DNA of 61,297 nt from NCBI GenBank assembly GCA_030656575.1, contig JAUSPO010000030.1, positions 1 through 61,297 of the forward strand. Direction: 5' to 3'. Positions 31,866 through 57,437 of this stretch are shown piece after piece. Every line of letters starts with the position of its first letter. The first letter of the stretch is position 1. Both the position numbers and the translations under genes were made by a program. Under the pieces are notes generated by a model. That model ran no database searches, was not told the DNA's origin, and saw only the letters and a program-made list of their open reading frames with translations. This DNA comes from Bacillota bacterium. GTDB taxonomy: Bacteria; Bacillota; Dethiobacteria; DTU022; UBA8154.

Positions 31866-32127
31866 ATGGGGACGGTTCGAGCGTCACCGTAGCGTAGCGA
31901 AGACTTGGGGACATTCATAGGGGACATTCCCCGCAGGGGTGTGTTCCCATACCACTTGAAAAATGGGGTGTGTCGCCTTACCATAGCTAGTGGGAAGACG
32001 ATGGAACCGTCCCCAAGCTTTGCGTCCCGAGCGATTAAGTAACCTATTGGCTGAGTAGTTACAAAAATAGAACACATTCCCTTATAGTTGGAAGCAGCAG
32101 AACCGTCCCCGTGCTTCCCCGTGCTTC
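31866..32127. repeat. Composite REP-like element (GGGGACGGTTC...GAACCGTCCCC enclosing GGGGACATTCC/GGTGTGT hairpins)
   Basis: Blocks near-identical to 57282-57437; sub-hairpins also at 50853-50902 and 53655-53748. Confidence 0.85.
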
Positions 32128-46950: not shown

Positions 46951-48900
46951 ATGATTATAGAGATGAAAAAAATATCGATGGTTGTCCAAACCAAAGATAA
47001 AGAATCAACTCTTGATTTGCTGGGGGAGCTTGGCCTTGTCCACCTGGAGGACTTTCAGTGTTCTTCCCCGGACGTAGAGGATGCTATGGCCAAAAAGAGC
47101 AGGGCGGAAGCTGCCTATACTTTTTTGGCGGAATTCAAAACCAAGGAAGAACTGCCCCCACCATCTTTAAGTCCAGTTGAGGCGGTAGAGGATGTGTTGC
47201 AGATCGGGGAGAATCTTCAGGCCGTTAAGGAGCGGGCAGTATTTTTGGACAAGAGAATTACCGAACTGCAAAGCTGGGGGGATTTTGATCCCGAAGACTT
47301 TAAATTCCTGGCGGTCAAAGGCTACCATCTTAAAATCTATTATGTTTCCCGTGAGAAACTCGAAAGAATGAATGATATCGAGGGTGACGTAGTGGTTTTA
47401 AGAGAGGATAAAAAAGGTCTTGCTTTTGCCCATATTACCAGAGAGCCCGTGACCCTGGAGGAATTTGACGAATTTATCATTCCTCCTCAAAGCCTCAGCG
47501 CTATGCAAACAGAAAAAAATGAATTATCGGAGAAAATCGCGGAACTTACGGGAAAAGCACAATATTATTATGGTCTCAGGCCTGCTATAAAGGTCTATGT
47601 GGATAGTTTGGAGTCGAATCTGCAATATTGGATTGCCAAAGCAAATGCGATGGATGAAGAAAACCTCACGGCTGTCGTCGGTTATCTTCCAGTTGACGGG
47701 ACGGAGGCCGTACAAAGTTGGGCTCGCCAAAATTCTGTCGCCATAGCCATAACAGATCCTGACCCGTCAGACCCCATACCCACTCTAGTCCGCAATCCCA
47801 AGTGGTTGGAAATTGTCAGTCCTGTTTTTAAGTTTATGGGCACGGTGCCCGGCTATCAGGAATTGGATATCAGCCTCTTTTTCCTTTGTTTTTTCACCAT
47901 ATTCTTTGCGATGATTATCGGGGATGCTGCCTATGGTGCCATCTTTTTCCTGGGAGGATTAGGGTTAGTATTTTACTACAGCATGTTCAAAAGAGAGAAG
48001 CCGCCTTTGGCTGCATGGCTTTTTACCTTCCTTGGTATGGTCACAGTAGTTTGGGGGAGTATAAACGGTTCCTGGTTTGGAAGTCCTGAACTGATCAAGG
48101 GCACTTTCCTGGAAAGACTGATAGTCCGCCAGTTGACGGAGGGATTCAGCGTTTATACCCCCGCTGGGGAATTTTATAAGGAATTAAGAAGTCAGGATGT
48201 CATTATGCTGTTATGTTTCATTATTGCTTTAGTCCATCTGACTATCGCTCAGGTTTGGAATTTTTTACAAGCTGTAGCCCAACGTTCCCTGCAAGCTGTG
48301 GGTCAGGTTGGATGGATGCTAATAAACTTTGGTCTCTTCTACCTGGTTTTAGATATGGTGATGAGCTTTAATCTTGACGAGGCATTAGGTGCGGGAGGTC
48401 TTGTCTCGAGCGCGAGTTTAAATTTAATTTTTGGCGGATTAGGACTGGTGGTCCTCTTCGGCTCACAAGAGGGTCGCTTTTTTAAAGGGATTCTTGCAGG
48501 CCTTGGAGGGGTGCCGAACACTGTCCTGGGGTCTATTGGAGCTTTTGGTGATATCATTTCCTATGTAAGGCTTTTCGCCATGGGTCTGGCTGGAGCCGAA
48601 ATCGCGAAAAGTTTTAATAATATGGCCGGCGGCCTTTTATCGGGTAATACCATCATTATAGGAGTACTGATATTGTTTATAGGGCACATTTTTAATTTCG
48701 TGCTATGCGTCTTGGGAGTGTTAGTTCACGGAATTCGTTTGAAAATGCTGGAATTCTCCGGCCGTCTTGGTATACAGTGGTCCGGTCACGAGTATAACCC
48801 TTTCAGCGTCCGGAGAGATATCGCCTACCCAGCAGCGATGTCTGCTAAAACACGAAGAGTGAGCCCCGCTGTTGGTAGTGTATCGGAAATCATAAGCTGA
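46951..48900 (+). CDS. A/V-type ATP synthase subunit I (a)
   Basis: PGYQELD, IIGDAAYG, DIISYVRLFAMGLA, HGIRLKMLEF. Confidence 0.93.
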   Translation: MIIEMKKISMVVQTKDKESTLDLLGELGLVHLEDFQCSSPDVEDAMAKKSRAEAAYTFLAEFKTKEELPPPSLSPVEAVEDVLQIGENLQAVKERAVFLDKRITELQSWGDFDPEDFKFLAVKGYHLKIYYVSREKLERMNDIEGDVVVLREDKKGLAFAHITREPVTLEEFDEFIIPPQSLSAMQTEKNELSEKIAELTGKAQYYYGLRPAIKVYVDSLESNLQYWIAKANAMDEENLTAVVGYLPVDGTEAVQSWARQNSVAIAITDPDPSDPIPTLVRNPKWLEIVSPVFKFMGTVPGYQELDISLFFLCFFTIFFAMIIGDAAYGAIFFLGGLGLVFYYSMFKREKPPLAAWLFTFLGMVTVVWGSINGSWFGSPELIKGTFLERLIVRQLTEGFSVYTPAGEFYKELRSQDVIMLLCFIIALVHLTIAQVWNFLQAVAQRSLQAVGQVGWMLINFGLFYLVLDMVMSFNLDEALGAGGLVSSASLNLIFGGLGLVVLFGSQEGRFFKGILAGLGGVPNTVLGSIGAFGDIISYVRLFAMGLAGAEIAKSFNNMAGGLLSGNTIIIGVLILFIGHIFNFVLCVLGVLVHGIRLKMLEFSGRLGIQWSGHEYNPFSVRRDIAYPAAMSAKTRRVSPAVGSVSEIIS

Positions 48901-48931
48901 AATAAAATATAACTATAAGGAGCGTAATAAT

Positions 48932-49378
48932 ATGGTTGAGTATGGATTAATGGGTATCGGTGCAGCACTTGCTCTTGCTGCTGTAGGTTCCGGATTGGGC
49001 ATCGGTGCGGCTGGGCAGGCAGTTATTGGGGCGTGGAAGAGGGCTTTTATGCAGAATAAGCCGGCGTCATTTATGTTGTTGGCTTTCACAGGTTTCCCTC
49101 TGTCCCAGACTTTTTACGGCTTGATTTTAATGAATACCATCGTGGCATCAGCGCACCTTTTGGAAAGCGGGGTTATACTTGGAATCGGCATTTTTGGCGG
49201 CTTGGCCATCGGAGCTTCCGCCTATGCGCAGGGCGTGGCTGGTGCCGCCGCCGTTGACGCTTTTGGAGAAACGGGCAAAGGGTTCACCAACTATGTTTTG
49301 GTTCTGGGTGTTATAGAATCCGTTGCTTTGCTGGCAATGGTGTTTTTGATGACTATCATCACCACCATCGCAGGGTAA
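48932..49378 (+). CDS. A/V-type ATP synthase subunit K (c), 4-TM
   Basis: Gly-rich hairpins, PLSQTFYG, AQG, IES. Confidence 0.92.
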   Translation: MVEYGLMGIGAALALAAVGSGLGIGAAGQAVIGAWKRAFMQNKPASFMLLAFTGFPLSQTFYGLILMNTIVASAHLLESGVILGIGIFGGLAIGASAYAQGVAGAAAVDAFGETGKGFTNYVLVLGVIESVALLAMVFLMTIITTIAG

Positions 49379-49485
49379 TTTCCCGGCGGGCATGTCTCCC
49401 CTTGCAGTACTTGGAAAAAGCAAGGGATCCGGGCTATACCTTACATGTAGGATATAAGAAAAGCTTGTAATTTTAATCTCTTGAT

Positions 49486-49530
49486 ATATGCAAATAAGGC
49501 AGGGATAATATCCCTGCCTTATTTGCATAT
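49486..49530. terminator. Perfect 21-bp inverted repeat between the convergent ATPase operon and ldh
   Basis: ATATGCAAATAAGGCAGGGAT-AAT-ATCCCTGCCTTATTTGCATAT. Confidence 0.8.
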
Positions 49531-49639
49531 TCCGTTGCAGATTAGCACTTTGCTGCAGAACAGCCCTTACCAGATGATGAAAATAATCCGGATTAATGGT
49601 CTCCAACCGGGTTTCGGTTTATAGGCTTGGTTTCGGTGC

Positions 49640-50596
49640 TCACGAATGCCGGGCAAACGTTTCCGTGAACTCTATTGGAAGTGATCTTTTGACAACTTCT
49701 GCTGAGCGTATAAAGTTCCGTTTTTCTTCATCATTCAGTTCAAAGGGAATAATATTTTCCACGCCATCCCTTCCCAGGACACAGGGAACACTGAGATAAA
49801 TATCTTTCACGCCATAATTGCCATCTATAAGTGAAGAGACTGTCAGTACGGAATGCTCATCACGCAAAATACTTTCCGCTATTCTTCGCAGAGCAAGGGC
49901 AATAGCATAGTAAGTTGCGCCTTTTTCGCTGATTATCTCATAGGCAGATTCCCGTACTTTTTGTATGAGATCGTCTCTTTTTTTGGATGAGCATACATTA
50001 GTGCAGGTTTCACAAAAGGCTGTAAGAGGAATTCCTGCAACATTTGCGGTACTCCAGAGGGGAACTTCCGAATCACCGTGTTCTCCGATCACATAGGCAT
50101 GAATATTCCGGGGATCAATATTACAGCGGGCGCTTAAAAGATGCCGGAAACGTGAAGTATCCAAGACTGTCCCTGAACCTATTATTCTTGAGTGAGGAAG
50201 ATTAGAAAATTTCCATACCACATAAGACATAATATCGACTGGATTGGTTACCACAATAAAAATGGCATCAGTATTATGTTCTAAAATATCTGTGAGTATT
50301 TCTTTCATGACCCCCGTATTGATCTCCACAAGATCCATACGTGTCTGCCCTTGTTCCTGAGAGGCTCCTGCAGTGATAATTATTATATCCGCGTTTTTGC
50401 AATCTTCATATTCACCTGCATATATATGAACAGGCTTAATGAAAGAAGCCCCGTGACTGAGATCCATCGCTTCACCATGGGCCTTTTCTTTTTTTTTATC
50501 AATTAATACGATTTCCTGGGCTGTCCCGCCAAGCATTAGAGCATAAGCTGTAGTAGAACCTACAAAACCAGCTCCTATAATTACAACTTTGGCCAC
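49640..50596 (-). CDS. ldh: L-lactate dehydrogenase
   Basis: GAGFVG, GQTRMDL, TNPVD, GTVLDTSRF, GEHGDS, KGATYY. Confidence 0.95.
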   Translation of the reverse strand: MAKVVIIGAGFVGSTTAYALMLGGTAQEIVLIDKKKEKAHGEAMDLSHGASFIKPVHIYAGEYEDCKNADIIIITAGASQEQGQTRMDLVEINTGVMKEILTDILEHNTDAIFIVVTNPVDIMSYVVWKFSNLPHSRIIGSGTVLDTSRFRHLLSARCNIDPRNIHAYVIGEHGDSEVPLWSTANVAGIPLTAFCETCTNVCSSKKRDDLIQKVRESAYEIISEKGATYYAIALALRRIAESILRDEHSVLTVSSLIDGNYGVKDIYLSVPCVLGRDGVENIIPFELNDEEKRNFIRSAEVVKRSLPIEFTETFARHS

Positions 50597-50788
50597 ATTT
50601 CCCCCACCTTTCATTCATAAACAAAGTCAGGTCAAAAAAACTTAATGTTTTAGATATAACCGTGTTTCCACTTTTTATACTAACCATCATGTCTCTGTGG
50701 ACCTATGAACAAAATGAGGTTAATAAGAAAACAATGTATCCCTCAGATGACGTCGCAATGTAAAATGGTTACCTGCTTTTGCTACCCC

Positions 50789-51044
50789 GGGTGGTAAATG
50801 CTGAGACGGAAAACGGTTTCCCGCGGAAAGCTCTAAGGCTCAACTCCAGGCCATAGGGGACATTCCTCTGCAAGAGGTGTGTCCCCATACCTTGAAAAAA
50901 TGGACTTCCCCGGCGGAACTCCCATCCTGGTCGTCGCCAAGCCTGCTGACATCGTGTCAGCAGGGTCACCTCCAGCCTTACGTTTCGCCAAGAGCATTTA
51001 AACCGCAGGAAACAGAGTTATTCCGTCAACAGCATTCACCACCC
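50789..51044 (-). ncRNA. Unassigned structured non-coding unit, copy A (with inserted REP-like hairpin)
   Basis: Long terminal stem GGTGGTGAATGCTG.../...CAGCATTTACCACC; core homologous to 51261-51474. Confidence 0.6.
50853..50902. repeat. REP-like hairpin GGGGACATTCC...GGTGTGTCCCC
   Basis: Same family as 31.9, 53.7 and 57.3 kb. Confidence 0.85.
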
Positions 51045-51260
51045 CTCCTACTAACGAACACAAACCTGCTGTTCATAACTATAATGAGATGACTGCTATC
51101 AAAACACTCTGTTTTCCTCAGATGGCAGATGAATGTAGGTTGCCAATTATGTCGCGAAGCAAAAAGTTACCGTAGTACTTCAAGTGGAACTTGGAGTAAA
51201 CTATATCCTTCGCCATCCCACCATGTATTTAAGATGGTTCCACCACCTGTGTACCTCCCA

Positions 51261-51474
51261 GGTGGTGATCGCTGTTGGCAGAGACGACTTAGTTCAAGTA
51301 GGTCATAAGCTCTCGGCGAAGCGTAAGCACGAAGGTAACTCTGCTGACAGGACGTCAGCAGACCCGTGGACGACCTGGACGGGAGTTCCCACGGGGAAGT
51401 TATCGTAGTGCCGGAGCTGAGGCGATAGAGCTGACCACTTGAACTTGGAGACTCTGCTTCAGCGACTCACCACC
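51261..51474 (+). ncRNA. Unassigned structured non-coding unit, copy B
   Basis: Terminal stem GGTGGTGATCGCTG.../...CAGCGACTCACCACC with compensatory changes relative to copy A. Confidence 0.6.
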
Positions 51475-51538
51475 CTACTACCCACAGATGGTGCAGGAAT
51501 GTAGGCCCCCGATTTGTGCAGCGAAATAAAAAGTTTAC

Positions 51539-51623
51539 GGTGAAGCGAGAAATGGAGACGATCCAGTTTGACTGGATGTCAGATGCTAGCAGACGACCAT
51601 AGACGGGAGTTCTGCCGGGGGAG
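51539..51623 (+). repeat. Partial third copy (core only) of the structured unit
   Basis: GGTGAAGCG...hairpin...GACGACC-ATA-GACGGGAGTTCTGCCGGGGGAG. Confidence 0.6.
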
Positions 51624-51764
51624 CAAAAGCGAATACCTTACGTATAGAGGAAGTGTATCCAGAAGTAATAGGAAAATGGCAGAAACAGTTATTTTCTGTT
51701 ATTGCGCATTATTTTCTATCAAATTGAATATAATATATTGAAAAGGCAGGGAAGGGAGATTCTT

Positions 51765-52067
51765 GTGAAAGGAGTTAGTAATTTCCTGATAGATTTATCC
51801 CAAAGGTTGTTAGGAGAAAAAAGTGAAGTATCTTCGGAAAAGAATTCTGTAAGCAGCGCTTCTCTTTTGGAAAAGGCAAAGCTGGACTGGTATGCAGCAA
51901 TTTCTCTTTTTAATAATCTGACCGATCAGGATCTGGTTGATCATGCTATTTTTAATCTTAATGCAGTTGAAAGACGTTATTCCTATTTACTGAAGGAAGC
52001 ACGGAGAGAACACGAAATACAGAAAAGTTATTTTAGAGAGGAGGAAGAGTTAAAAGGATATGATTAA
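51765..52067 (+). CDS. yaaL: YaaL / DUF2508 family protein
   Basis: DWYAAISLFNNLTDQDLVDHAIFNLNAVERRYSYLLKEAR. Confidence 0.85.
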   Translation: MKGVSNFLIDLSQRLLGEKSEVSSEKNSVSSASLLEKAKLDWYAAISLFNNLTDQDLVDHAIFNLNAVERRYSYLLKEARREHEIQKSYFREEEELKGYD

Positions 52068-52332
52068 TTTTGATCTAAATTTTATTCTTGCGTTTTTCTT
52101 TGGAATTATAGTTCTGTATATTCTGGCACGCCTTTTGTATTTTCCCTTCAAAATATTTATACGTTTTCTTGGCAGTGCAGTTCTTGGGGGGATTATGCTG
52201 GCTCTTTTTAATTTAATAGGAACGATCTGGGGTGTTCAGATCGGATTAAATGTTATCACGGCTGCAATTACAGGATTTATGGGAGTTCCCGGCATCATAT
52301 TAATTTTTCTTCTACAGCGCATAACTTCTTAA
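52060..52332 (+). CDS. bofA: Pro-sigmaK processing inhibitor BofA
   Basis: Three TM helices, IGLNVITA..GFMGVPG; follows yaaL. Confidence 0.88.
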   Translation: MINFDLNFILAFFFGIIVLYILARLLYFPFKIFIRFLGSAVLGGIMLALFNLIGTIWGVQIGLNVITAAITGFMGVPGIILIFLLQRITS

Positions 52333-52440
52333 AAACTATCGGTCATACTGTATTATTTAACCAGCTTATTAGGGCTGGTTATTTTATTTGGATATGTTAG
52401 TATTATATAAAGAATGTACTGCATTTGGAGGAATACATAA

Positions 52441-53583
52441 GCGCCCAGGGTAGATATTCTGGAGACAGGAGAACAGGTTCTTGTTTTCCGGGAGGAAGAT
52501 GGATGGTATAAAATACGCTCCTCGAAGGGTTTTCTTGGGTATGCTCCCAAGAAGGAACTTCATTTTACTGGTATTTCATCAGAGTGGGAGCATGTTTCAA
52601 AAGAAGAACCATCCTGGCGTCCCCTGGGAAGCAGAATTAGTTTAGTCTGGGAGCATGTCGTTAATAAATCACCATCGTTAGAAACTATCAAGCCCATGCC
52701 TGGAATAAATGTTATTTCTCCTACCTGGTTTCATCTAAGGGATGAAGAAGGAAACCTCACAAACCTGGCTGATTCCAGTTACGTGAATTGGGCCCACGGA
52801 AAAGGTTACCAGGTCTGGGCTTTGGTCAGCAATAACTTTGACCGGGATTTAACTGCGGCAGTATTACGCAGCAGCGAAAAAAGAGAAAGAGTTATAGACC
52901 AGCTTTTAGCTTTTTCTGCATTATATAATCTTGATGGAATCAATGTGGATTTTGAAAATATGTATCCTGAAGATCGGGATAATTTAACACAGTTTATGAG
53001 GGAACTGGCGCCTCTGGCACGTGAGCAGGGGCTGGTTCTTTCCATAGACGTAACCTTTATATCCGGCAACCTCTACTGGTCCCTTATCTATGACCGCGCT
53101 GCTCTGGCAGACGCTGCAGATTATATTATTGTGATGGCTTACGATGAACATTGGGGGACAAGCCCTGTGGCCGGTTCGGTAGCTTCATTGCCATGGGTGG
53201 AACGAGGGCTGCAGAGAGTGCTGAGGGAAGTCCCAGCGGACAAGCTTATTCTTGGGCTGCCTTTATACACACGTCTCTGGGAAATAGAATATCTGGAAGG
53301 TGGTGCAGAGAAGGTCGCTTCCAGGGCTTATGGCATGGACAGAATACAAAACATTCTTGCCGAAGAAGGGGTGCAGCCCGTATTTAATGAAGAGAGCGGT
53401 CAAAACTATGCCTCCTTCGACAGGGGAGATAGGCATTACAAAGTATGGGTTGAGGATCTCATTTCCCTTGAGAGTAGAATAGACCTGGCTGAGAAATATG
53501 GACTTGCAGGAGTTGCCGCCTGGAGAAGGGGATTTGAAAGTGAGGAAGTCTGGGAACTTTTTAGCCGCAGACTAAAACGTTAA
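52441..53583 (+). pseudogene. SH3 + glycoside hydrolase family 18 (spore cortex-lytic-like) protein lacking its N-terminus
   Basis: Open frame from 52441 (SH3-like GWYKIRSSKGFLGY) has no start codon until ATG52696; ISPTWF, DGINVDFE, VMAYDEH, AAWRRG. Confidence 0.65.
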
Positions 53584-53654
53584 GTAATAGAAACAGAACC
53601 TCATTGACAGGGATTGTGGATAGTGGCATAATCATACCGTGTGAAAGTAAGCAG

Positions 53655-53748
53655 AAGCATAGGGACACACCAATTTTTGCAGAGGTAAGGGGACACACCG
53701 TCTTTCAAAAGGTAAGGGGACACACCTCATCGAGGAATGTCCCCGAAG
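53655..53748. repeat. REP-like cluster (GGGACACACC x3, GGAATGTCCCC)
   Basis: Reverse-orientation copies of the hairpin family. Confidence 0.8.
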
Positions 53749-53759
53749 GGGTTGTTAGG

Positions 53760-53990
53760 ATGGATCTGTTTATTACTCTTATAATTATTTTAATCATAGT
53801 TTTCTGGCCCCGGCATGGCCAGATACGCTATTATCTTCTTCTTATTGCCGGCATATTTATTTTTATTATTGCCCTTCTTTTTGCTCCCGTACTGCTTCTT
53901 TCGCCTCTTTTCTATATCGGCATGGCAGTTTCCGCAGCCCTTATGATTTATAAAGTTATTACAAAGGACAGACATGATCGTAAAAAATAA
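53760..53990 (+). CDS. Small hydrophobic membrane protein
   Basis: 76 aa with about three TM segments; start reassigned downstream of the repeat cluster. Confidence 0.6.
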   Translation: MDLFITLIIILIIVFWPRHGQIRYYLLLIAGIFIFIIALLFAPVLLLSPLFYIGMAVSAALMIYKVITKDRHDRKK

Positions 53991-54114
53991 TTGTAACAGG
54001 ATACGGTGATATTTTTCCGAAACAATAATTCTTTTGGGAAGAAGTGAATTAAAAGGTATTCTGAATTCTGAATACCTTTATTAAGTTAATAAATAAGGTA
54101 ACAAATTTTTGTTA

Positions 54115-57281: not shown

Positions 57282-57437
57282 CATGGGGACGGGTTTTAGG
57301 AACGGGGACACACCTCTTACAGAGGAATGTCCCCATGCAATGTCACCGCAGCGCAGCGGAGACTTGGGGACATTCCCCGCAGGGGTGTGTCCCCTTACCT
57401 TAACGAGTGGGAAGACGATGGAACCGTCCCCGTGTCT
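57282..57437. repeat. Composite REP-like element
   Basis: CATGGGGACGG...GACTTGGGGACATTCCCCGCAGGGGTGTGTCCCC...AGTGGGAAGACGATGGAACCGTCCCC, matching 31866-32015. Confidence 0.88.

What the first reader, a model, noticed from the sequence alone, without database searches (positions are those of the whole stretch)
50741..51623. Array of an unassigned, covarying structured non-coding unit between ldh and yaaL
Seen: ~0.9 kb without a credible ORF carries two full copies (50789-51044 on minus, 51261-51474 on plus) and one core-only copy (51539-51623) of one unit. The unit runs GGTGGTGA-nn-GCTG-TTG...GCTCT-YGGCGAARCGTAAG...GRAGGTRAC-[hairpin]-GACGACC-nn-GAYGGGAGTTCC-nn-CGGGGAAGT...GGAGYTGAG...TAGAGC...CAGC-nn-TYACCACC. 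The ~40-bp outer stem differs in sequence between copies but stays paired (ATGCTG/CAGCAT vs TCGCTG/CAGCGA; ACGGA/TCCGT vs GCAGA/TCTGC; TTTCCTGCGG/CCGCGGGAAA vs GTTCAAGT-GGTCA/TGACC-ACTTGAAC). The inner hairpin is replaced in copy C (TCCAGT-TTG-ACTGGA). Mismatches in copy A read as G-U wobbles only in the GACGACC sense. Inference: selection on single-stranded structure plus an invariant core, as expected for an undescribed ncRNA/ribozyme class or a folded non-autonomous mobile element. I do not recognise it as any Rfam family.
Basis: partly seen in the sequence, partly recalled or inferred. Interest (0 to 1): 0.9.

Follow-up and report, generated by a model that had tools for sequence, protein, structure and literature searches.

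The report
Structured non-coding mobile repeat family
The spacer between ldh and the yaaL-like gene is filled with copies of a ~215-300-base non-coding repeat that is scattered through this and related genomes and keeps an elaborate fold through compensating mutations, so it is a real but unclassified folded mobile element whose moving enzyme and RNA role are unknown.

Summary
Units at 50789-51043 (-) and 51261-51475 (+) fold far better than shuffles (z -8.7, -8.6). No Rfam 15 family matches.

It is not a local array. A covariance model finds 20 sense-strand units in this genome and hits in 22 of 33 genomes of the family. Hits are sparse elsewhere in the order and phylum. Named Syntrophomonas records also hold it.

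On 35 copies, 92.8% of cells pair against 67.3% when shuffled. 69 of 75 pairs change on both sides. G-U outnumbers A-C 95 to 35, so one strand is selected to fold.

All 20 units in this genome are intergenic, with no partner gene. In related genera the unit has a ~75-nt leader and a conserved 14-nt tail, sits after a ..TAAC word and forms head-to-tail arrays. In S. wolfei the same core lies inside a terminal-inverted-repeat element with 6-bp target duplications.

Verdict: a new structured, non-autonomous mobile repeat family. Ribozyme or trans-acting RNA roles are untested. No RNA data were available.

The parts
49640..50614 (-). Left flanking gene, L-lactate/malate dehydrogenase (context only).
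   Evidence: Pfam Ldh_1_N 2.2e-47 and Ldh_1_C 2.7e-47.
50775..50790 (.). Left arm of a 16-nt inverted repeat that brackets the whole cluster. The partner arm is 51615-51630.
   Evidence: the repeat finder I2: 94% complementary, 824 nt between the arms. Its meaning is unknown.
50789..51043 (-). Unit A: a full 255-nt unit of the A subfamily.
   Evidence: CM 113.1 bits, E 4e-25. Fold -137.5 kcal/mol, z -8.66. Four other A-type copies in the genome at 86-89% identity.
50851..50900 (.). A GC-rich hairpin repeat of about 40-50 nt nested inside unit A. It is absent from B-type units.
   Evidence: It appears as an insertion relative to B in the alignment. The same segment gives 31 blastn-short hits in 22 contigs of the genome.
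51049..51055 (+). A tail-like or target-like word (TACTAAC) abutting unit A, followed by a decayed leader-like stretch.
   Evidence: Read. It is the same word that precedes leaders and ends tails in related genomes.
51118..51218 (+). A degenerate, internally deleted unit: the 5' part of a C-type unit plus a 3' stem fragment.
   Evidence: 51118-51173 resembles 51484-51543. CM with filters off gives 5 bits, E 0.099 at 51121-51218.
51200..51260 (+). Decayed leader upstream of unit B.
   Evidence: It aligns with the upstream 20-70 nt of other B copies. Leader sequences occur only next to units.
51261..51475 (+). Unit B: a full 215-nt unit. Outer stem 51261-51274 pairs with 51460-51474. Rod helices run to 51340/51398. 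Tip hairpin 1 is 51341-51361 (loop AGGAC). Tip hairpin 2 is 51363-51395.
   Evidence: CM 247.2 bits. Fold -116.6 kcal/mol, z -8.61. Helix coordinates. Ten other B copies at 86-94% identity.
51476..51483 (+). Remnant of the conserved 3' tail after unit B.
   Evidence: Compared with the tails. Weak, by eye.
51487..51623 (+). Unit C: the 5' ~60% of a C-type unit, truncated just after tip hairpin 2.
   Evidence: 79-84% identity to C-type units at four other loci over 51500-51623. CM with filters off: 51564-51621, 14.2 bits, E 5e-4, model positions 80-138. Full C-type units exist elsewhere.
51615..51630 (.). Right arm of the 16-nt inverted repeat that brackets the cluster.
   Evidence: the repeat finder I2.
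51702..52067 (+). Right flanking gene, DUF2508 (YaaL family), followed by bofA (context only).
   Evidence: Pfam DUF2508 2e-10. BofA 1.2e-17 for 52060-52332.

Best explanation
The 0.9-kb spacer is a pile-up of four copies of a non-autonomous, non-coding mobile repeat: two complete, one internally deleted and one truncated. Each unit is about 215-255 nt, or about 300 nt with its leader and tail.

On one strand the unit folds into a long interrupted rod of about 75 base pairs, ending in two hairpins. The two-hairpin tip keeps its sequence. It includes a hairpin with an AGGAY loop and a GACC..GGAYGGGA segment. The rod keeps only its pairing.

Shown:
- dispersal and copy-number variation;
- intergenic position;
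- lack of any encoded or neighbouring partner protein;
- compensatory evolution of the fold;
- an excess of G-U(T) over A-C, which means a single strand of fixed polarity is what is selected;
- in Syntrophomonas wolfei, classic terminal inverted repeats with 6-bp target duplications around the same core.

Inferred: the fold is needed for the element's own propagation, as a single-stranded DNA or RNA intermediate or recognition structure read by an enzyme supplied in trans. In the window's family the element enters next to a short ..TAAC word, without a variable target duplication. Because its own tail ends in that word, new copies land beside old ones and build clusters like this one.

Which enzyme moves it, and whether it is transcribed, is not known.
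For: Multi-copy and dispersed:
- 11 B-type copies at 86-100% identity.
- 20 sense-strand units by CM: 11 B, 5 A and 4 C or mixed.
- 19 of 20 are free of any ORF of 120 aa or more. One is touched at its edge by about 46 nt.

Distribution:
- Family: 22 of 33 genomes including this one, with 1 to 41 matches per genome.
- Order: family f1 20/32, f3 3/73, f5 2/7, f2 0/1, f4 0/1.
- Phylum sample: 7 of 151 including this genome.
- Named records include S. wolfei subsp. methylbutyratica JCM 14075 and other Syntrophomonadaceae.

Structure:
- 92.8% of cells paired against 67.3% shuffled (0 of 500 shuffles reach it).
- 69 of 75 pairs change on both sides. Slid controls pair at 31-47%.
- G-U 95 against A-C 35.

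No partner gene:
- Single-copy loci lie between housekeeping genes: yggT|ylmH, rplI|ssb, lysA|asd.

Ends:
- In genome G001, 9 of 20 copies have a full leader by a strict pattern, and all 9 are preceded by TAAC. 10 of 20 show the 14-nt tail by a strict pattern. More are visible in the alignment, together with head-to-tail arrays.
- The same leader and tail occur in another genus.
- S. wolfei: a 16-nt terminal-repeat motif occurs 112+122 times, against 0 for the control. 14 of 19 copies have exact flanking repeats of 6 nt or more.

Clusters like the window's recur on contigs C103, C127, C136, C85 and C173.
Against: - No mobilising enzyme was found. Presence of IS110-type (12 of 33 genomes), RVT_1 (14 of 33), Y1_Tnp (3 of 5) and TnpB (4 of 5) does not track element copy number. 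No unit lies next to such a gene.
- No empty site was recovered for the window's family, so its insertion is inferred, not seen.
- The copies in this genome are old (86-94% identity), and their leaders and tails are decayed.
- In three genomes of one genus a unit sits at the same locus and is about as conserved as the neighbouring coding sequence. This could mean an in-situ function rather than selfish spread.
- The same core occurs inside two different 'shells': leader and tail, or inverted repeats with duplications. This suggests the core may have a function of its own.
- The pair counts come from an alignment fitted to the model, which leans towards the structure.
- Orientation against GC skew in this genome (11 of 16 A+B units opposite to the leading strand) is the reverse of what IS200/IS605-type single-strand insertion would predict.
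Confidence: 0.6

Rival explanations
1. The conserved two-hairpin tip plus rod is a functional RNA carried as cargo, and mobility is secondary. Candidate roles are a guide-like, bridge-like or decoy RNA that recruits a protein encoded elsewhere, or a ribozyme.
For: - The tip sequence is conserved across genera while the rod only covaries.
- G-U exceeds A-C, which fits RNA.
- The same core sits in two unrelated mobilisation shells.
- Orthologous copies are retained at one locus in three genomes, at coding-like conservation.
- No Rfam family matches, so it would be a new class.
- Passages read in PMC10055086 say that gene-less PATE elements often encode guide RNAs used in trans. This is a precedent only.
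Against: - No promoter-like or terminator-like site in the window spacer, and none obvious in the conserved leader (by eye).
- Orientation relative to neighbouring genes is about random (12 sense, 17 antisense).
- No co-occurring protein family among the four tested.
- Many copies are truncated or interrupted.
- G-T wobbles are also tolerated in folded single-stranded DNA.
Confidence: 0.2
2. It is a gene-less derivative of an IS200/IS605-type transposon (PATE-like). It would move as single-stranded DNA by a Y1 transposase in trans, with the unit at the right end serving as a TnpB-type guide-RNA scaffold.
For: - In the window's family there are no terminal inverted repeats at the outer ends and no variable target duplication.
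- There is a conserved short word on the left flank (TAAC, 9 of 9 strict leaders) and a related word at the right end.
- The fold is strand-specific.
- The left end has a hairpin.
- Y1_Tnp genes exist in this genome, with 11 matches.
- The topology matches the description in PMC10055086 (passages read).
Against: - The left-end hairpin has no twin at the right end (by eye).
- Y1_Tnp gave 0 matches in two genomes with 26 and 36 element matches, and only a partial match in the one with 41.
- TnpB is absent from a genome with 19 element matches.
- No CM hit lies beside any tnpB gene of this genome.
- Orientation against GC skew is the opposite of the lagging-template rule: 11 of 16.
- The left-flank similarity often extends to about 12 nt, more than a 4-5-nt motif.
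Confidence: 0.1
3. It is an ordinary DDE-transposase MITE. The 'structure' is only the by-product of long terminal inverted repeats that must match each other.
For: - In S. wolfei the element has 16-17-nt terminal inverted repeats and 6-bp duplications.
- In this genome the unit's ends are an inverted repeat (the outer stem).
Against: - Covariation also covers the inner, asymmetric helices 5-12, which are not inverted copies of each other.
- The inner tip is the conserved part and the termini are the variable part. This is the reverse of a transposase-bound inverted repeat.
- The G-U over A-C asymmetry is not expected for a double-strand constraint.
- No target duplication is seen in the window's family.
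- No transposase was found beside the five solo terminal repeats examined.
Confidence: 0.1
4. It is a cis-regulatory leader or terminator of ldh or the yaaL-like gene, or a decayed protein-coding fragment.
For: Units A and B each point towards the adjacent gene in the window. The same is seen in a second locus on C103.
Against: - Copies lie beside unrelated genes in all orientations.
- No terminator-like site.
- ORFs are at most 74 aa, with no Pfam hit.
- Indels and compensatory pairs do not respect a reading frame.
Confidence: 0.02

Closest known systems
ERIC/IRU and similar structured intergenic repeats of bacteria (Correia, RUP, BOX). The reviews PMC3184786, PMC10969869 and PMC3049150 were seen only as search listings and abstract starts. 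Details below are recalled.
   Same: Short, non-coding, intergenic and multi-copy. Imperfect long palindromes that fold as a single strand. Size variants arise from internal insertions or deletions and from modular build-up. The moving enzyme is often unknown.
   Different: This unit is larger, at 215-300 nt. It has an asymmetric, multi-helix, sequence-conserved tip. Its termini vary between genera while its interior is conserved. It occurs in lineages far apart within Bacillota. No sequence relation to those families was tested or expected.
PATE-type gene-less IS200/IS605 elements that encode guide (omega) RNAs (PMC10055086, passages read).
   Same: No protein gene, many copies and a structured RNA-like body near one end. 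A conserved flanking word and a related terminal word. Mobilisation and use in trans.
   Different: No matching hairpins at the two ends. No link to Y1 or TnpB genes. The rod-shaped 75-bp fold matched no Rfam model, including those Rfam holds for IS605-orfB and HEARO RNAs. That Rfam holds such models is recalled.
Classical MITEs (terminal inverted repeats plus target-site duplication).
   Same: The S. wolfei form meets both features. It shows deletion derivatives and nested small insertions.
   Different: The window's family shows neither a terminal inverted repeat at the true outer ends nor a variable duplication.
HEARO / IscB omega RNA, as a historical analogue (recalled).
   Same: A large covarying RNA-like motif, first noticed as a multi-copy, mobile-looking repeat without a known function.
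   Different: HEARO lies next to its protein gene. This unit has no neighbouring partner.

Membership tests
Any Rfam 15 family | Covariance-model match at or near the family's gathering score. | tested here: not met
   Window 48000-54000 in E-value mode: only three chance-level hits (E 0.36-0.95), none credible on the unit. Eight loci from relatives, including S. wolfei: only a PyrR site elsewhere.
Classical MITE | Short, non-coding, many dispersed copies. | tested here: met
Classical MITE | Terminal inverted repeats at the outer ends. | tested here: inconclusive
   Met in S. wolfei. In the window's family the unit's outer stem is an inverted repeat, but the conserved element extends beyond it (leader, tail) and those outer ends are not inverted repeats.
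Classical MITE | Variable target-site duplication. | tested here: not met
   None at copies of this genome or G001. Met only in S. wolfei, in 14 of 19 copies.
Classical MITE | A cognate autonomous IS with the same ends. | tested here: not met
   Five ORFs beside solo S. wolfei terminal repeats are DegV, an SLH protein, ThyA, an ABC ATPase and one with no Pfam family. ORFs beside solo leaders in G001 are housekeeping or toxin-antitoxin genes. The sample was limited, not the whole genomes.
IS200/IS605-derived PATE with guide RNA | A conserved short flanking motif and a related terminal motif, with no inverted repeat and no duplication. | tested here: met
   TAAC precedes 9 of 9 strict full leaders. 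The tail ends in ..TAA.
IS200/IS605-derived PATE with guide RNA | Similar subterminal hairpins at both ends. | tested here: not met
   The left-end hairpin has no counterpart near the right end (by eye).
IS200/IS605-derived PATE with guide RNA | A Y1 transposase and TnpB/IscB available, with the nuclease gene carrying the same scaffold. | tested here: not met
   Y1_Tnp in 3 of 5 genomes and TnpB in 4 of 5, not tracking copy number. No CM hit beside tnpB in this genome.
IS110-family bridge RNA | Lies beside, or co-occurs with, a DEDD recombinase. | tested here: not met
   PF01548 is in 12 of 33 genomes. It is present in 4 of 5 genomes of a genus without the element, and absent from two genomes with 19 and 36 element matches.
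Group II intron or other retroelement RNA | Intron RNA domains, or co-occurrence with a reverse transcriptase. | tested here: not met
   No Rfam intron hit. RVT_1 is in 14 of 33 genomes and absent from the genome with 41 matches.
Self-cleaving ribozyme or trans-acting ncRNA | A discrete transcript and catalytic or binding activity. | not testable with these tools
   It needs wet-lab work or strand-specific RNA-seq of a carrier.

The most novel reading that the evidence does not exclude
The invariant two-hairpin tip on a covarying rod is a new class of mobile-element-borne functional RNA. It would be a guide-like, bridge-like or decoy RNA that works with a protein encoded elsewhere. It has been captured by at least two different mobilisation systems: leader and tail in the window's family, and inverted repeats with duplications in Syntrophomonas.
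Probability: 0.2. Interest if true: 0.85.

Novelty: new variant of a known kind. Interest (0 to 1): 0.55.

Why it matters
Large covarying RNA-like motifs with no assigned family are rare. Some that first looked like odd mobile repeats later proved to be guide RNAs of programmable nucleases (recalled: HEARO, IS605-orfB).

This family offers hundreds of natural variants and a well-supported 75-pair structure. It also has a cultivable carrier, Syntrophomonas wolfei subsp. methylbutyratica, with near-identical young copies. Its transcription, partners and mobility can therefore be tested directly.

It also explains contig breaks and clustered 'junk' spacers in these environmental genomes. If it is only a selfish repeat, it is still an unusual one. 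Its interior, not its ends, is what is conserved.

Tried and rejected
Database and literature searches that led nowhere:
- Rfam on the window and on relatives gave nothing.
- Plasmid and phage collections in distant blastn mode gave no match.
- The viral contig pattern scan gave 0.
- Public runs: no RNA holder was listed, only DNA holders.
- Literature searches on Syntrophomonas + MITE, Syntrophomonas wolfei + repeats/ncRNA, and Syntrophomonas + covariation/RNA motif found nothing describing this element. This covers only the held library. Subscription papers and supplements could not be seen. The Extended Data on PATEs of PMC10055086 were not seen.

Partner-protein hunts that failed:
- Neighbours of single-copy units.
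- ORFs beside solo leaders.
- ORFs beside solo S. wolfei terminal repeats.
- Family-wide presence of IS110 and RVT_1, and Y1 and TnpB in five genomes.

Ideas considered and dropped:
- 'Mini' core-only copies as an ancestral regulatory RNA: they are degraded full copies.
- The leader as an independent repeat: it occurs only beside units.
- A bridge-RNA-like test for 6-mers of the terminal word inside the unit: only a CGCCAC/GTGGCG word shared with a stem, nothing convincing, on 11 units.
- Orientation tests gave no consistent bias.
- Promoter and terminator scan of the spacer: 0 and 0.
- Integron attC, dif/Xer, IS91 and IS607 were considered from memory and dropped, because the end words and repeat symmetry do not fit. 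None was tested with a tool.

Rows dropped before counts:
- For one search I removed 11 of 49 rows of alignment A4: 5 antisense images, 5 truncated hits and 1 duplicate.
- For one search I removed 6 near-duplicate rows of 35.

This is the same report with that field filled in.
Full report
**What is in the window**

The ldh gene (49640-50614, minus strand) and a DUF2508/YaaL-family gene (51702-52067, plus strand) are confirmed by Pfam. The 1.1 kb between them has no ORF longer than 74 aa. The three longest ORFs have no Pfam hit.

The spacer holds four copies of one unit:
- Unit A, 50789-51043 (-), complete.
- Unit B, 51261-51475 (+), complete.
- A 3'-truncated C-type unit at about 51487-51623 (+).
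- A badly degraded unit at about 51118-51218 (+).

Units A and B fold with z-scores of -8.66 and -8.61. None of 200 shuffles folds as well. Unit A also carries a nested GC-rich hairpin of 40-50 nt (50851-50900). That hairpin is itself a dispersed repeat, with 31 blastn-short hits in 22 contigs. A 16-nt inverted repeat (50775-50790 and 51615-51630) brackets the cluster.

**It is a dispersed family, not a local array**

A similarity search of the window's own genome finds 11 near-full B-type copies at 86-100% identity. My blastn finds five A-type copies at 86-100% and five C-type pieces.

I built a covariance model, R1, from the 11 B copies. It has 216 positions and 75 pairs. It recovers 20 sense-strand units in this genome: 11 B, 5 A and 4 C or mixed. 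The other 12 of its 32 matches are antisense images or weak.

19 of the 20 units are free of any ORF of 120 aa or more. One is touched at its edge. Clusters like the window's recur on five other contigs. Unit G+C is 0.54-0.60, against 0.43 for the genome.

**Distribution**

- Family: 22 of 33 genomes including this one, with 1 to 41 matches each. One genus scores 0 of 5.
- Order: f1 20/32, f3 3/73, f5 2/7, f2 0/1, f4 0/1.
- Evenly drawn phylum sample: 7 of 151 including this genome.

A pattern taken from the conserved tip finds 98 stretches in named genome records. They include:
- Syntrophomonas wolfei subsp. methylbutyratica JCM 14075, in many contigs;
- other Syntrophomonas and Syntrophomonadaceae MAGs;
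- MAGs titled Bacillota, Clostridia, Firmicutes or Dethiobacteria bacterium;
- MAGs titled Desulfovibrio or Desulfovibrionaceae;
- single hits in a few other titles.

Several titled records seem to be the same assemblies as same-family handles. I therefore do not read the Desulfovibrio titles as cross-phylum spread.

Viral contigs gave 0. Plasmid and phage collections gave no match.

**The fold is real and strand-specific**

The test used 35 sense copies from about 22 genomes aligned to R1:
- 92.8% of cells form standard pairs, against 67.3% after shuffling (0 of 500 shuffles reach it).
- 69 of 75 pairs show changes on both sides, in 605 cells.
- Sliding the partners by 1-3 columns drops pairing to 31-47%.
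- All 12 helices contain compensated pairs.

Two caveats apply. The alignment is fitted to the model, and related copies are not independent.

In my own count on 38 rows, after dropping 11 antisense, truncated or duplicate rows, Watson-Crick cells number 2369, G-U 95 and A-C 35. My hand tally of the structure-agnostic MAFFT alignment gives about 27 to 9. This asymmetry means a single strand of the 'sense' polarity is what selection sees. That strand could be RNA or folded single-stranded DNA.

Across 29 non-redundant copies, positions conserved at 90% or more are concentrated in the two tip hairpins and a few junction words. The rod only covaries. Helix coordinates for unit B are given in the parts list.

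**Ends and insertion behaviour**

In this genome the 3' boundary of homology is sharp. Upstream homology is ragged, at 0-70 nt. The upstream 'leader' occurs only beside units.

In a related genus, 20 copies were aligned with their flanks. They show the full architecture:
- a short word ending in TAAC;
- a leader of about 75 nt with its own hairpins;
- the unit;
- a conserved 14-nt tail ending in the same word.

Copies often sit directly after the tail of another copy, head to tail. By strict patterns, 9 of 20 copies have a full leader, all 9 after TAAC, and 10 of 20 have the tail.

The leader gives 43 matches in that genome, 20 and 2 in two others of the genus, and 0 in two genomes of another genus. 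The same leader and tail occur in a third genus. A fourth genus has the word directly before the unit, with no leader. No variable target duplication or outer inverted repeat is seen in these genera.

In S. wolfei subsp. methylbutyratica, copies are 269-271 nt and many are identical. They have 16-17-nt terminal inverted repeats. 14 of 19 have exact flanking direct repeats of 6 nt or more. The terminal motif occurs 112+122 times in that genome, against 0 for the reversed control.

These S. wolfei elements are modular. They range from 139 to 421 nt. The core may be complete, deleted, or interrupted one to three times by a ~52-nt two-hairpin module.

**Search for a partner**

- Single-copy units lie between housekeeping genes.
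- Solo leaders and solo terminal repeats sit beside ordinary genes.
- Y1_Tnp was found in 3 of 5 genomes, TnpB in 4 of 5, IS110-type recombinase in 12 of 33 and RVT_1 in 14 of 33. None tracks element copy number.
- No unit lies next to any of these genes in this genome (one search compared).

**Transcription**

No RNA run holds the region; this is recorded as a step that gave nothing, not as evidence. The spacer has no promoter-like or terminator-like site by the simple scan.

Orientation relative to neighbouring genes is near random in other genomes: 12 sense, 17 antisense, 5 convergent, 3 divergent. In S. wolfei it is 8 sense and 3 antisense. In this genome, 11 of 16 A+B units oppose the GC-skew leading strand, while all 4 C or mixed units follow it. 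The sample is small and not independent.

**Conservation in place**

In one genus a unit sits at the same yggT|ylmH locus in three genomes. It aligns at about the identity of the neighbouring coding sequence, while the rest of the spacer does not align. One genome has different outer stems.

**Interpretation**

The best-supported reading is a new family of structured, non-autonomous mobile repeats. Mobility is shown directly only in S. wolfei, by target duplications and identical copies. In the window's family it is inferred from dispersal, copy-number variation and arrays.

The fold is under selection on one strand. I think selection for propagation, through a folded single-stranded intermediate or recognition structure, is most likely.

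Three facts keep a cargo-RNA function alive at about 0.2: the core is conserved inside two different shells, a copy is retained in place across three genomes, and the tip is nearly invariant.

A PATE-like IS200/IS605 origin fits the end words but fails on hairpin symmetry, enzyme co-occurrence and orientation. A plain inverted-repeat MITE fails on the conserved asymmetric interior, the wobble asymmetry and the missing duplications. Regulatory-leader and decayed-gene readings are excluded for practical purposes.

**Novelty and score**

No Rfam family and no paper in the held library describes the element. The kind, folded intergenic mobile repeats, is known. This variant is unusual in size, in its conserved asymmetric core and in having two mobilisation shells. 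I rate it a new variant of a known kind, interest 0.55.

Noticed in passing
window 50851-50900; also 57304-57334, 53709-53749, 31916-31963: A GC-rich hairpin repeat of 38-50 nt (REP-like) is dispersed in the genome, with 31 blastn-short hits in 22 contigs. One copy is nested inside unit A, and all five A-type units carry it.
   Followed up: partly
G000 contigs C90, C47, C166, C161, C42, C69: Six Y1_Tnp-domain open frames of 248-297 aa, among 11 Y1_Tnp matches in all. They could be REP-associated transposases paired with the small hairpin repeat. None lies next to a structured unit.
   Followed up: no
L204-L214 (S. wolfei subsp. methylbutyratica, G115): The inverted-repeat elements are modular, at 139-421 nt. 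A ~52-nt two-hairpin module is inserted one to three times at different points of the core, or stands in a triple tandem. Its hairpin resembles the hairpin in the leader of the window's family.
   Followed up: partly
window 50775-50790 and 51615-51630: A 16-nt inverted repeat (94% complementary) brackets the whole cluster of units. Its origin is unknown; it may be a recombination scar.
   Followed up: no
window 49485-49531: A near-perfect long hairpin between the ATP-synthase-c-like gene and the 3' end of ldh. It gave two chance-level Rfam hits (sraA, MIR5743) and looks like a bidirectional terminator.
   Followed up: no
L087, L090, L078 (genus g4, yggT|ylmH spacer): A unit occupies the same locus in three genomes. 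Two share outer stems and the third has different, still complementary, outer stems. This suggests conversion or repeated insertion at one site.
   Followed up: partly
record titles versus handles: Some MAG records titled Desulfovibrio or Desulfovibrionaceae carry many copies, but appear to belong to the window's own (Bacillota-type) family. The titles are probably mislabels, not evidence of cross-phylum transfer.
   Followed up: partly
G001 contig ends: Many leaders and units lie at contig ends (11 of 18 fetched regions were cut by a contig end). The repeat therefore breaks short-read assemblies, and copy numbers are lower bounds.
   Followed up: no
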